The notes under the pieces: model-generated
What the model was told of the DNA's origin: nothing
Databases searched by the model: none
The model's input: only the letters and a program-made list of their open reading frames with translations
Source of the DNA: Eledone cirrhosa
Lineage: Eukaryota
Assembly: GCA_964016885.1 (NCBI GenBank)
Contig: OZ024741.1
Coordinates: 357,554,001-357,618,000 of the forward strand
DNA length: 64,000 bases
Direction: 5' to 3'
Part shown: piece by piece, positions 11,011 to 60,018 of the stretch
How positions within the stretch are numbered: position 1 is the first letter of the stretch
Layout of the letters: each line of letters opens with the position of its first letter
Program-made: the position numbers and the translations under genes

Positions 11011-11610
11011 TATCAATAATATTAATAAATGGAAAATATCTTTATAAAACCGTATTTAATTTATCATACATATTTCAAGGGCACCAGTATTTTGGTACGC
11101 TTTCGTCAGATAAAATACAATATTTGGTTTAAATATAGTGACATATCGAAATCTGAACTTAATGTTATGAGTACAATGCAGTTCATAACATTAAGTTCAT
11201 ATGTTGATATGTCACTATATTTAAACTAAATATTGTATTTTATCTGACGAAAGCGTACCAAAATACTGGTACCCTTGAAATATGTATAATAAAATAAATA
11301 TGGTTTTATAAAGATATGTTGGTACCACAACATCCAGTCCAAAATAAATGTTGTGTAGGTGTCACGACAAAAAAACACACAGTCCACGCTGTAATGTGGG
11401 CGTGTAGGTAACACAGTAAAAACCTACCAGTCCACACTGTAAACGTGGTTGGTGTAGAAAACCTGCCAGACAGTCCTATACGAGCGAGACATGGTCACCT
11501 GACCATTCTTACCTCAAGTAGGACAACTCCCGTCTAAACCCATGCTTGATATTATACTCCAGAAGAAATCTGTTGAGTGCTTCTAATCTGTTATAAATTG
11601 ACAAATAACT
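11011..11610. mobile_element. Non-coding fold-back PLE-derived element A1 (inverted arms, hammerhead, one-sided tail), interrupted by an RTE-tail fragment at 11318-11547
   Basis: 11036-11170 is the reverse complement of 11183-11317 (12-nt loop). Tail at 11548-11610 resembles those of A2 and A3 and runs into (TA)n. Confidence 0.8.
11236..11296 (+). ncRNA. Minimal type I hammerhead ribozyme motif (mirror copy about 11057-11117 on minus strand)
   Basis: Stem I TATTTTAT/ATAAAATA, core CTGACGA 11244-11250, stem II AAGCGTACCA/TGGTACCCTT, GAAA 11277-11280, short stem III, predicted AUA cleavage triplet. Confidence 0.7.
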
Positions 11611-14074
11611 CATTGTTTATATAATATATATATATATATATATATATATATATATATATATATATTGATGATGATGATGATATATATATATATATATATA
11701 TATATATATATATATATATATATTGATGATGATGATGATGATGATATATATATATATATATATATATATATATATATATATATATATATATATATATATA
11801 TATATATATAATATATATATGTATATATATATATATATATATATATATATATATATATATATATATATACACCTGTTTTATTATTTCTTTTTACACATAG
11901 GGCTTTTCTCTTCAATTCCCATTCTTTTCTGTATCTTTTTAATTTGTCCCTTTCTCCAAGTTGAAACTTATACTCACAACTATTTCCCATATTTCAAGAA
12001 AAATGTTCAAAACTTATATGAAACTGTAAAGTGATATGTAAAACACAGACACAATTTAGGTTTGACTGTCTTTGCTACATGGGAACAAGAGTTAACTGTG
12101 TCAGCTGTAAAGTATTTCATGTTTTTTATTTTGTTTTTTGGTAGATATTTAAAAATAACTGTAAAATACTAAAATTAGTTTTAAAAAGTTAATAAATATT
12201 TTTTAATGATTTCAAAGCAATGTAGAAATGACATCATCAATGTAAAATGACATTTTTTATAACCTGCCAGTTTAGAATACATTAATTTTATATACACATT
12301 ATGATGATGATGATGATTATACAAGTTTTTTCTTCTGTTGTGTTTTAAACAGAGAAAATGGTTTGATTAACAATAGTATTTGTATCTTCTAGGTCTCATG
12401 TTTGACATATAGGGTGTCTGAGATAATTCAGAAATCTCTAATAAAATAACAAAAATTGAAAAGATTATAAATATCACCAACCCCATCACCATTATTTAAA
12501 ATCCATTTTCTCATGTTGGCATGGGTATGACTAATATTTATGTGCATATACATATATATATATATGCACATAAATATTAGATATATAATATATTTAAACA
12601 TATACACCCACGCACACATTCACATACATACATATAATATATATCATCATCATCATCATTTAATGTTCATTTTCCATGCTAGTAAGGGTTGGATGGGTCG
12701 TTACAGACTCAGAGGGAGCTACAGACTTCTTAGATGGGCCAGGAGCCAACATCTCACTTACTTACATTCTTGCTCTCTGCCAAATACACAGGTGGGTTTA
12801 GAGCCTGCGTCTCACTTTGTAAATGTTTCTAAATTCTATCATGTCACCAGTACTAGGGAGATTATCATGTCTTTAACACAGCTGAAGAATCCTCCTGACC
12901 CTTTGTTTGGCAGGTTTTCTACAGTTGGGTGCTTTTCCTATCATCCACCACTTTACAGAGTGTACTAAGTGTCTTTATCATGTTGATCACCAGCACTAGG
13001 GAATTTGTGTATCTTTAACACAGCTGAAGAATCCTCCTGACACTTTGTTTGGTAGGTTTTCTATAGTTGGATGCTCTTCCTATCTCCATCTTTATGTATG
13101 TATATATATATATATATTACTCTATTACCAGCCAACAGGCTGAGGCCATGCTGGGGCACTGCCATTGACATATATATATATATATATCAAATTAAAAAAC
13201 GGAGTTGAAGACTCACGTTAATCCCCTGTAATTTAATGAGCTCAAGGAATAAGTACTGGGCTCTTTATAATACAATATATAGAGAAGAATATACAAAGAG
13301 GTATGTGTTCAATTATAGTGGATAGAATACCACCAGAGTGAAAAACAAAGTCTACGAAAGGGATGGGGAATACATATCAATTAAAAGAATAAATTAAAAT
13401 GCACAAACCAGCCTTTTATAACTATAAACACCTGGACAAACTCTATTACCTAATTTGAGTACCAACCTGGTCTGTGACAACCTGTCCAACCCTTGTTAGC
13501 AGGGAAAGTGGATGTTATATGATGATGACACTGCTGCTACTGATATAGATATATCATCATCATCATCATCATTTTACGTCCGCTTTTCCCTGCTTGCAAG
13601 GATGGGACGGGTCCTATTCAGCACAGCATCTCTCCACTTGTCACGGTCCTTCGTCATCTCCACCGTGAACTTCAGTGATCTGAGGTCTGCTCTCACCACC
13701 TCCGCCCATGTTTTTCGTGGTCTTCCTCATATATATATATGTATATATATATATATGTATCATCATCATCATCATCATCAGGTTTAGCGTCCGTGTTCCA
13801 CGCTTGCATGGGTTTGGACGGGGGTTTTCCCACTTGAGGCAAGAGTGGTTGTCTTGCTCGCATAGGACTGTCTGGCGGGTTTTCTACAGTTGCATGCCCT
13901 TCCTAACACCAACCACATTTACAGTGTGGGGCTGGGAGGTTTTTACCGTGTTGCCTACACGGCCACATTTACAGCGTGGACTGTGTGATATATATATGTA
14001 TATATATATATATATATATATATATGTATATATGTATATATATATATATGTATGTATGTATGTGTGTGTGTATG

Positions 14075-58453: not shown

Positions 58454-60018
58454 AAGAATTAAAATACTAGAGTGTGTTGGAGTTAAACACCCTCTTCATA
58501 TTATAGAAATGACAGTAAAGGTATAGCTCAATGTAATTAAACAGAGCCGAAGAATTAAGAAATAAACCAAAGAAGCCTTCAATACATCAAAAGTCTTTAT
58601 TAGCCAAGTGTTTCGCCCTGTTAAGGACTCATCAGGGCAAGTAAAGCTATAAGAAGCACTATCGGCCAATACAAGCCAAAAACTCAGAAGAATATGGAGT
58701 ATACATACATTAAAGCATAGGAAAATTATCAAGTAAAAATTGCTAAGGAAGTGAATAACATTTTGAACCATATTACAAATATAGTACAATGCAAAAACTA
58801 AAGCTAAACACAAGTGGTGATATAAAGGGAGAATTCCGGTGCTAAATATAATATAATATATTATAATTGATAATAATAATAATAATATTAAAAGGCCCAA
58901 TAAACATACATATACATATGTATACATATACATATATATGTCAATACACATATCCATCTATACAAACCCAAACTAACACCTATTAAGAGTTAAAATAAAA
59001 ATAATACAAATAATATTTACAGTATAAAATGATAAAGAAATGAGTAAAAATAAACATATAAAATATAATATACTATATAAATATATAATTATATAATTAA
59101 TAATCCCCGGTCAATTTGCACAAACAGTATAAATATTACAATAACACTATAATAACAATATTATAATATATTGGCATATAACGTAACAAATCATATAAAG
59201 TTACACACAGAGGGTGAGAAAAAAAATATCATACAGAACTAAATTGTGTTGAAAAGATTGTGCTGGAAAAATATCTATACCGTTGTAAGAAAACAGACGG
59301 AGGTCAAGTTTTTATACAATTGTATAAATAAGTATTATCTAAACGTTACAAAAATTATAAAAATATAAACATATTACAGAATTTACAAAATTTAACATAA
59401 TGGTACATCAACATCAAATAATGAACAGTATAATATACATAATTACATGGTTGGTAGACAGACATATGTGAATAAGTGAATAAGAACCAGACAGAAAACT
59501 ACGCACAGTAGTAAAAAAAAATATAAATATAAATAAAATAAAATCAACCGGAAATCGAAAAACAAAAACAAAAATATTTACTTAGGTGTCTCGAGCAGTT
59601 CAGTAAAAAAATTTAGGAAACAAACCCGGATAAATGACTAGAAAACCCTAAATTAATTAATATTGCAAGTATTTAAAATATATAATAAGTCAATACAAAA
59701 TTAGCTATGGTTTAAGTAATCAAAATCTCCAAAGTTTAAGATATCTCAATAATAACATCGAGAATAGAATGAAATACTTTACTATCAGTTGAATAACGTT
59801 ATCTAATAAACAGACTTTAAGTAGAACTATGGTAGGCCAATGGGGACAGAAAAAAAGAAATGTATGGAGGATGCGAAGGAGCATAAAATCATAATCAATA
59901 TACTGTATTATACAATAGAAAGGGGCATAAAAGGGAATTGAATATAATTATAGTATAAATTGAAGGGGCTAATAAAGACTTTTGATGTATTGAAGGCTTC
60001 TTTGGTTTATTTCTTGAT
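58454..60018. mobile_element. Asymmetric fold-back PLE-derived element D2
   Basis: Tail 58454-58556 is homologous to the D1 tail (CGGCTCTGT...ACATTGAGCTA); 58557-58605 is the perfect reverse complement of 59967-60015; long non-coding arm between. Confidence 0.85.
58594..58648 (-). ncRNA. Type I hammerhead ribozyme motif
   Basis: CTTTACTTGCC-CTGATGA(58635-58629)-GTCC TTAACA GGGC-GAAA(58614-58611)-CACTT^GGCTAATAAAG. Confidence 0.8.

What the first reader, a model, noticed from the sequence alone, without database searches (positions are those of the whole stretch)
11573..58534. Conserved TTGAG motif at near-fixed distance in the one-sided tails of four dissimilar families
In element sense the tails contain CTGTTGAGTGC (11570-11580, 47444-47454), CTGTAGAGTGC (16738-16748), GTATTGAGTAC (14114-14124, 17558-17568, 23652-23662, 28300-28310) and ACATTGAGCTA (55677-55687, 58524-58534). 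Where both arms exist the motif lies about 20-27 nt beyond the point where the tail-less arm ends. Inference: an RNA cis-signal that positions the RT for internal initiation upstream of the tail. The coding PLE's own tail lacks it, which points to a different autonomous partner.
Basis: partly seen in the sequence, partly recalled or inferred. Interest (0 to 1): 0.8.

Follow-up and report, generated by a model that had tools for sequence, protein, structure and literature searches.

The report
Twin hairpins set Penelope transposon tails
The motif is the 3' side of a small bulged-hairpin sequence that Hydra-type Penelope retrotransposons carry twice, each copy about six bases past one of the element's two insertion ends, which likely means the hairpins fix where reverse transcription starts and would explain these elements' puzzling one-sided tails and inverted copies.

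Summary
The nine sites are real, but TTGAG is only the 3' strand of a bulged hairpin, RCTC-NNN-loop-N'N'N'-T(T/A/C)-GAGY. The window elements are 5'-truncated, inverted ends of Hydra-clade Penelope-like elements (PLEs). Five of six lineages (A2, B, C, D, E1, E2; not C) carry a second hairpin; all six run on into their own RT/GIY-YIG ORF (40-66% identical). The tail-less end lies about 6 nt before hairpin 1 and the tailed end about 6 nt before hairpin 2, so tail length equals hairpin spacing (66-172 nt). Of 268 (TA)n-flanked ends, 254 fall 0-12 nt before a hairpin. All 73 inverted pairs with both ends classifiable are one tailed plus one tail-less. Metagenomic relatives carry the motif (twice in 36 of 68 loci) with compensatory stem changes. 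Best reading (inferred, 0.72): each hairpin docks one RT, and the two prime the two ends of a cut (TA)n target. Exceptions: family C lacks a recognisable second hairpin; no parent found for A1. No RNA or biochemical data. Not found in my literature searches. Interest 0.8.

The parts
11033..11620 (+). Family A1: foldback pair of pLTR ends (11033-11320), interrupted by a SINE-like repeat (about 11318-11546), then tail to about 11620; hammerhead cores at 11244-11280 (+) and 11073-11109 (-)
   Evidence: parent ORF not found
11556..11578 (+). Hairpin 1 of A1 (ACTC-CAG/CTG-TT-GAGT)
14076..14213 (-). Family C1: single tailed end with degenerate hammerhead; hairpin 1 at 14116-14135 with one C>T change
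16683..17104 (-). Family B: palindrome 16777-17104 (98%), tail 16683-16770, hairpin 1 at 16740-16764 (TA bulge), hammerhead cores 16823-16869 (-) and 17012-17058 (+)
   Evidence: parent ORF
17517..17708 (-). Family C2: palindrome 17600-17708, tail from 17517, hairpin 1 at 17560-17578, hammerhead core 17628-17650
   Evidence: related parent ORF
23606..23725 (-). Family D1: tailed end, hairpin 1 at 23654-23677
28254..28449 (-). Family D2: palindrome 28331-28449, tail 28254-28330, hairpin 1 at 28302-28325; no CTGANGA hammerhead core in this family
   Evidence: parent ORF
47100..47516 (+). Family A2: palindrome 47100-47435, tail about 47427-47516, hairpin 1 at 47434-47452, hammerhead core 47167-47207 (-)
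   Evidence: parent ORF
54502..55749 (+). Family E1: inverted arms 54502-55657, tail 55658-55749, hairpin 1 at 55664-55685, hammerhead cores 55567-55597 (+) and 54562-54592 (-)
   Evidence: parent ORF
58454..60018 (-). Family E2: 1.5 kb tailed arm (3' UTR, hammerhead core 58611-58635, hairpin 1 at 58526-58547, tail 58454-58553) joined head-to-head to a 52-nt tail-less arm (59967-60018, +)
   Evidence: parent ORF
17780..21481 (.). Coding inverted PLE of another clade (RT + C-terminal GIY-YIG, arms 1389 nt, hammerhead cores 18001-18028 and 21178-21205, tail about 21427-21481); not part of the motif set

Best explanation
The nine sites are hairpin 1 of a pair of bulged-hairpin sequences that Hydra-clade Penelope-like elements carry between their hammerhead and their start codon, each about 6 nt 3' of one of the two insertion ends, and each likely docks one reverse transcriptase on the RNA so that two internal starts prime the two ends of a cut (TA)n target. 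Shown: the two motif copies, their covarying stems, the fixed offsets, tail length equal to hairpin spacing, the strict tailed-plus-tail-less pairing, and the parent ORFs. Inferred: a read-through transcript of a tandem array carries both hairpins; two RT/endonuclease molecules bind them; the endonuclease cuts both strands of (TA)n; one end is extended from just before hairpin 2 (tailed arm), the other from just before hairpin 1 (tail-less arm); the two cDNAs stop early and are joined head-to-head, probably by a template jump of one RT onto the other cDNA, giving a palindrome with a one-sided tail. The hairpin used is never copied by the RT it positions, so hairpin 2 is seen only in tandem copies.
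For: Structure: motif-anchored hairpins from metagenomic relatives pair at upper-stem position 1 in 79 of 81 (Watson-Crick 78 vs 45.6 shuffled), position 2 in 59 of 81 (35.2), position 3 in 49 of 81 (32.8); 0 of 5000 shuffles reach these. On 72 of them aligned: 90.1% of cells paired vs 79.4, 74 double-sided changes vs 27.7, 0 of 500 shuffles, slid registers 23-56%. G-T/T-G 15 vs A-C/C-A 5 and T-T 27 vs A-A 5 over the three upper pairs favour the sense strand. Duplication: within 260 nt before the ORF, two motifs in 36 of 68 loci, one in 20, none in 12; spacing 55-83 nt; strict scan 47 of 68 vs 3 of 68 on the reverse strand, 0 of 68 in the ORF, 0.5 shuffled. Predictions made before the search: a second hairpin just past the tail end was found for D (436 genome hits, control 0), B and A2 (277, control 1) and E1 (23, control 0). 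Offsets: 254 of 268 (TA)n-flanked ends of A2, B, D, E1, E2 lie 0-12 nt before hairpin 1 (112) or 2 (142); 191 are compatible with 6 nt, the mode. Eight further references with spacings 66-172 nt and loops up to about 60 nt show ends 1-9 nt before the stem base. Pairing: 73 tailed+tail-less, 0 tailed+tailed, 0 tail-less+tail-less among 123 inverted pairs, 50 unclassifiable; in the body-selected E2 list 12 of 12 pairs are mixed, the tail-less arm longer in 6, the tailed in 5 (my reading of the table). Literature: in the anole Poseidon element both strands are cut and extended, RT starts at two internal sites that bound the tail, RNA 3' of them is required, and a dimer is predicted (PMC11167929).
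Against: No RNA, binding or priming data for any Hydra element. Family C (L161-L190 type) has two ends and 7 mixed pairs but no recognisable hairpin 2, only a TAGCACTCT remnant 7-9 nt past the tailed end. No continuation found for A1 (0 hits). 63 of the 254 near-hairpin ends are not compatible with exactly 6 nt, and K214 fits 4-5. The lower stem is nearly invariant, so it shows no covariation, and the first upper pair may reflect one old change between hairpin 1 and 2; shuffles ignore relatedness. RNAalifold kept only 3 lower-stem pairs with no covariation term. Minimum-energy folds of the whole region lack the local hairpins in B, D and E1. A model built only from metagenomic hairpins ranked 5 window sites first, 2 more at ranks 8-9, missed C1 and C2, with weak E-values. 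Overlapping arms need strand displacement or a second RNA, which is not shown.
Confidence: 0.72

Rival explanations
1. One RT starts before hairpin 2, folds back on its own cDNA (self-priming), and the endonuclease or the polymerase uses hairpin 1 in single-stranded DNA to fix the second end; the hairpins are resolution marks, not two start sites.
For: Also predicts mixed pairs. Self-priming was proposed for PLE palindromes (PMC3846280, passages) and endonuclease resolution for the tail (PMC8557442, sections 6 passage and 15). Pairing data cannot tell RNA from sense-strand DNA.
Against: A fold-back arm cannot be longer than the arm it copies, yet the tail-less arm is the longer one in 6 of 12 E2 pairs, and in two the tailed arm is little more than the tail. 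The same 6-nt offset at both ends suggests one reaction. Both ends are RT starts in the anole element in vitro.
Confidence: 0.13
2. The hairpins set the two starts, but two independent monomers (or two RNAs) act, with no coupling; no single two-headed complex.
For: Arms usually overlap in the region copied, which two RNAs explain simply. Single tailed and single tail-less copies both occur.
Against: Independent choice should give many tailed+tailed pairs; 0 of 73 were seen although loci were mostly picked on tails.
Confidence: 0.08
3. The motif is a double-stranded DNA site (promoter element or endonuclease site on the donor) or a translation element, and its place near the ends is incidental.
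For: Lower stem and the ACT after it are conserved in sequence. The D. virilis endonuclease needed tail DNA for recognition (as reported in PMC11167929).
Against: Compensatory changes and strand-biased wobbles; offsets hold from the stem base when loops grow to about 60 nt and spacing ranges 66-172 nt.
Confidence: 0.05
4. One reading: unrelated non-autonomous families share a linear TTGAG signal to borrow one outside RT.
For: Most copies are short and non-coding; their DNA does not align between families.
Against: Six lineages run into their own ORFs; bulge is TA or TC in many.
Confidence: 0.02

Closest known systems
Hydra-clade PLEs (Craig et al. 2021, PMC8557442; abstract, passages, sections 11, 12, 15 read)
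   Same: C-terminal GIY-YIG, RW[RK] and DKT motifs, CxCx5C linker, no CCHH, hammerhead in the pLTR, (TA)n targets, tandem and inverted copies with a one-sided tail.
   Different: The parts read describe no duplicated hairpin. Tails here are 66-172 nt against 30-40 bp given for PLEs; family D units are about 3.5 kb and lack the hammerhead core that the paper calls universal in the clade; tens of thousands of copies.
Poseidon element of Anolis carolinensis, PAc (Frangieh et al. 2024, PMC11167929; first two of four parts of the text read, supplements searched for four terms with no hit, the GenBank file not readable)
   Same: Two internal RT starts bounding the tail, both strands cut and extended, AT-rich target, required RNA extends 3' of the starts, predicted dimer.
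   Different: Other clade; starts lie in the ORF; no repeated determinant was identified there and no link to inverted pairs.
L1 twin priming (recalled, not read here)
   Same: Both target ends prime on one RNA and give an inversion.
   Different: There the second primer lands at variable sites by base pairing; here both sites are fixed by a repeated structure and the arms often overlap.
Stem-loop recognition by L2/R2 RTs and the telomerase or DRT10 template boundary element (L2/R2 recalled; DRT10 and telomerase from passages of 10.1101/2025.10.16.682844)
   Same: An RNA stem measured out by the RT fixes a limit of copying.
   Different: The boundary element lies 5' of the template and sets the stop; these hairpins lie 3' of the first copied base, would set the start, and come as a pair.
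Animal non-LTR retrozymes (10.64898/2026.07.22.740005; parts 1-3 of 5 read)
   Same: Short hammerhead-bearing pLTR-derived repeats.
   Different: Those are head-to-tail non-coding arrays; these are head-to-head truncated ends of coding elements. The parts read mention no such hairpin.

Membership tests
Hydra-clade PLE | Single ORF with RT and C-terminal GIY-YIG | tested here: met
   C 713, D 717, E2 896, F 710 aa with YRDD and C-terminal YIG/YVG; A2, B, E1 seen only to about residue 480
Hydra-clade PLE | RWK-type and DKT motifs | tested here: met
   RW[RKT] in 6 of 6, DKT in 5 of 6 (E1 DKA)
Hydra-clade PLE | CxCx5C linker; CCHH absent; CxxC and CxH near the C-terminus | tested here: met
   CxCx5C and CxxC in 4 of 4 full-length ORFs; CxH and absence of CCHH read from the printed D protein
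Hydra-clade PLE | Insertion into (TA)n | tested here: met
   268 of 322 non-through ends of five families are (TA)n-flanked
Hydra-clade PLE | Canonical hammerhead in the pLTR | tested here: inconclusive
   Core present in A1, A2, B, C2, E1, E2; no CTGANGA in the D unit of L381; Rfam gave no match at gathering score; cleavage not tested
Hydra-clade PLE | Generally under 3 kb | tested here: not met
   D tandem spacing 3531-3546 bp; a tendency in the paper, not a diagnostic
Hydra-clade PLE | RT phylogeny with curated Hydra references | not tested
   No named reference sequences were held; assignment rests on motifs
Non-autonomous retrozyme or SINE-like parasite | No coding parent; head-to-tail non-coding units | tested here: not met
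   Own ORF for A2, B, C, D, E1, E2; unresolved for A1
MITE or foldback DNA transposon | Symmetric terminal inverted repeats | tested here: not met
   73 of 73 classifiable pairs are asymmetric by the tail
RT-positioning RNA element (function) | Protein binds the hairpin and start sites follow it | not testable with these tools
   Only positional and covariation evidence

The most novel reading that the evidence does not exclude
Hydra-clade PLEs integrate by programmed twin priming: a two-headed RT/endonuclease complex is laid out on one RNA by two copies of an ancient bulged hairpin, each subunit extends one end of a double-strand cut from 6 nt before its hairpin, and this alone generates the tail and the head-to-head inversions; the same two-site logic may underlie tails in all PLE clades.
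Probability: 0.5. Interest if true: 0.88.

Novelty: new variant of a known kind. Interest (0 to 1): 0.8.

Why it matters
The one-sided tail and inverted copies of Penelope-like elements have lacked a mechanism; the 2021 survey ascribed them to endonuclease resolution and the 2024 in vitro study tied the tail to two RT starts without naming what sets them. A 20-30 nt hairpin, repeated, with a fixed offset gives a concrete determinant and a direct experiment (move, break, rescue). PLE RTs are close relatives of telomerase, so how they measure from an RNA stem is of wider interest, and a portable start signal with two-ended priming bears on retrotransposon-based gene insertion. Practically, the motif gives exact boundaries and a clade marker for a very abundant repeat class here (56,388 and 15,657 exact matches to two hairpin variants in 3.0 Gb, controls 0).

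Tried and rejected
The repeat finder was swamped by microsatellites; masked self-BLAST was used. Rfam: no match at gathering score. Pfam: only a sub-threshold RVT_1 hit on the window PLE. A CCAAT box after the tail as a route to parent elements: 130 hits, mostly chance; the apparent box in E2 is hairpin 2. My first guess of Neptune clade, from memory, was replaced by Hydra after reading the motif list. Searches used a structure string shifted by three columns (my slip); model R1 was not used; redone. A1 continuation: 0 hits. Family G rows were low-complexity artefacts and were dropped; C, F and G are not in the 268 count. Copies that begin at (TA)n exactly at a start site (L137, L065): no enrichment. 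RNA runs: no RNA holder listed. Homodimer prediction of family D residues 1-480: no answer. Earlier findings of this scan: none returned. Literature: eight searches showed no report of the duplicated hairpin; subscription papers, Repbase reports and the supplements of PMC8557442 and of the bioRxiv preprints were not seen and could hold it.
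Full report
Setting. The window is 31.6% G+C and rich in (TA)n; it lies at G000:C2:357554001-357618000 of a 3.0 Gb assembly. A cephalopod is likely (inference from genome size and from the one named close homologue, an Argonauta protein at 42%). Masked self-BLAST shows short head-to-head palindromes at 11033-11320, 16777-17104, 17600-17708, 28331-28449, 47100-47435 and 54502-55657, and a long and short arm at 58454-60018. Each has extra sequence, the tail, on one side and sits in (TA)n.

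The motif. In element sense each site is the 3' side of RCTC-NNN-loop-N'N'N'-T[TA]-GAGY: upper stems CAG/CTG (A, B), TAC/GTA (C1, D), TGC/GTA (C2), TGT/ACA (E); lower stems ACTC/GAGT or GCTC/GAGC. Two variants have 56,388 and 15,657 exact matches in the genome, reversed controls 0. A hammerhead core lies 40-100 nt upstream in A1, A2, B, C2, E1 and E2.

What the elements are. Copies of E2 end at two discrete places about 100 nt apart. Tandem copies run past the tail into an ORF. Its motifs (RW[RK], DKT, CxCx5C, no CCHH, late CxxC and CxH) match the Hydra clade as defined in PMC8557442 section 11. A divergent homologue as query retrieved the parent of family C. Patterns for tail end plus a second hairpin retrieved the parents of D, B, A2 and E1. 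The ORFs are 40-52% identical, E1-E2 66%; the non-coding ends align above shuffles in only 1 of 15 pairs; the window's coding PLE gives no hit to them. A back-translated N-terminal pattern has 2,065 genome hits against 39. A1 has no parent yet.

Two hairpins. In 79 metagenomic loci encoding relatives, 68 with a usable upstream stretch were scored; 11 with almost no upstream sequence or a match starting deep in the ORF were left out. The motif GCTC...T[TCA]GAGCACT occurs twice in 36, once in 20, not at all in 12, 55-83 nt apart, between hammerhead and start codon; controls 3, 0 and 0.5 of 68 for the strict scan that found 47. Anchoring on sequence only, the three upper pairs covary beyond all 5000 shuffles; the pair counter on 72 of these gives 90.1% paired and 74 double changes against 79.4% and 27.7. 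Against this: the lower stem is invariant, shuffles ignore relatedness, RNAalifold kept three pairs only, and whole-region folds often prefer other pairings, so the hairpins would need protein to hold them. A model from the metagenomic set alone ranks five window sites first, two more within nine, and misses C1 and C2.

Position. For A2, B, D, E1, E2 the hairpins are 87, 90, 78, 92 and 100 nt apart. Of 360 distinct ends examined, 56 ran through, 36 lacked a (TA)n flank and 268 had one; 254 of those lie 0-12 nt before hairpin 1 (112) or hairpin 2 (142). Junctions are ranges because element and target share T and A; 6 nt fits 191, more than any other value, and lies in every modal range. Loci were mostly selected on hairpin 1 or tail similarity, not on the offset. 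Eight further references, spacing 66-172 nt, some with loops of 30-60 nt, show the same: ends 2-9 nt before hairpin 2 and 1-8 nt before hairpin 1, with K214 fitting 4-5; that output also holds short or diverged hits ending elsewhere, which I did not count. Eight metagenomic contigs have a second copy ending 2-8 nt before a hairpin, four of them in a T/A repeat; most other hits stop at contig ends or elsewhere. So the ruler starts at the stem base, not at TTGAG. Family C is the exception: two ends, no recognisable second hairpin.

Pairing. Of 123 head-to-head pairs, 73 had both ends at a start site: all one tailed and one tail-less; 50 involved a through-running or unclassified arm. Tail-less pairs are under-sampled by my selection, tailed pairs are not. 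In the E2 list, chosen on body sequence, 12 of 12 pairs are mixed and either arm can be the longer (6 and 5, 1 equal; read).

Mechanism. Shown: structure-compatible covariation, duplication, offsets, pairing, parents. Taken from PMC11167929: a PLE protein cuts and extends both strands, starts at two internal sites that bound the tail and needs RNA 3' of them. Inferred: each hairpin docks one RT 6 nt 3' of its start; two of them, coupled on one RNA, prime the two target ends; early stops and a template jump join the cDNAs head-to-head. Fold-back with endonuclease resolution is the main rival and does not explain long tail-less arms with short tailed arms.

Novelty. The elements are members of a known clade by motifs (tree not built). 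The duplicated hairpin and its link to tail length and inverted pairs did not appear in eight searches or in the parts read of PMC11167929, PMC8557442, PMC3846280 (passages), PMC4209133 (one passage), 10.64898/2026.07.22.740005 (parts 1-3) and 10.1101/2025.10.16.682844 (passages). L1 twin priming and L2/R2 stem-loop recognition are recalled, not read. Verdict: real, a new cis-element in a known class that makes an open question testable; interest 0.8.

Noticed in passing
window 17780-21481 and 14323-16652: An inverted coding PLE of another clade (Cx4CxxC linker) with its own hammerhead and a 44-55 nt one-sided tail without the hairpin, and a decayed relative at 69% DNA identity; both families' tails begin with a shared GTTTCRACACACG-like stretch. 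Whether it repeats after the tail end is untested.
   Followed up: partly
L381:3108-4490 (family D unit): The most abundant family has no CTGANGA hammerhead core in its 3' region, although the clade is described as always having one.
   Followed up: partly
L161-L190 (family C parent): Second hairpin reduced to a TAGCACTCT remnant, yet two discrete ends persist.
   Followed up: partly
G000:C2:216011839-216012390: Four family B tail-end plus hairpin 2 matches spaced 204, 102 and 204 bp, suggesting a roughly 102-bp tandem mini-unit.
   Followed up: no
L137, L065: Copies whose 5' end starts at (TA)n about 6 nt before hairpin 1; no enrichment in a wider count.
   Followed up: partly
window 9083-10995 and 60071-61398: Decayed RT-bearing LINE-like copies, two of them in inverted orientation, sharing a 3' part with a dispersed short repeat (8603-9042, 13782-13987, 22416-22697); one such repeat interrupts family A1 at about 11318-11546.
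   Followed up: no
window 33729-34264, 36776-37789, 51997-52477: Tandem repeats of 179, about 225 and 91-93 bp.
   Followed up: no
L385:909-2522 on the minus strand: A 538-aa ORF unrelated to the Hydra ORF just upstream of an E2 copy; not identified.
   Followed up: no
L195, L214, L217-L219, L207: Hydra families in this genome with 30-60 nt insertions in a hairpin loop and tails of 133-172 nt, far above the 30-40 bp usually cited.
   Followed up: yes
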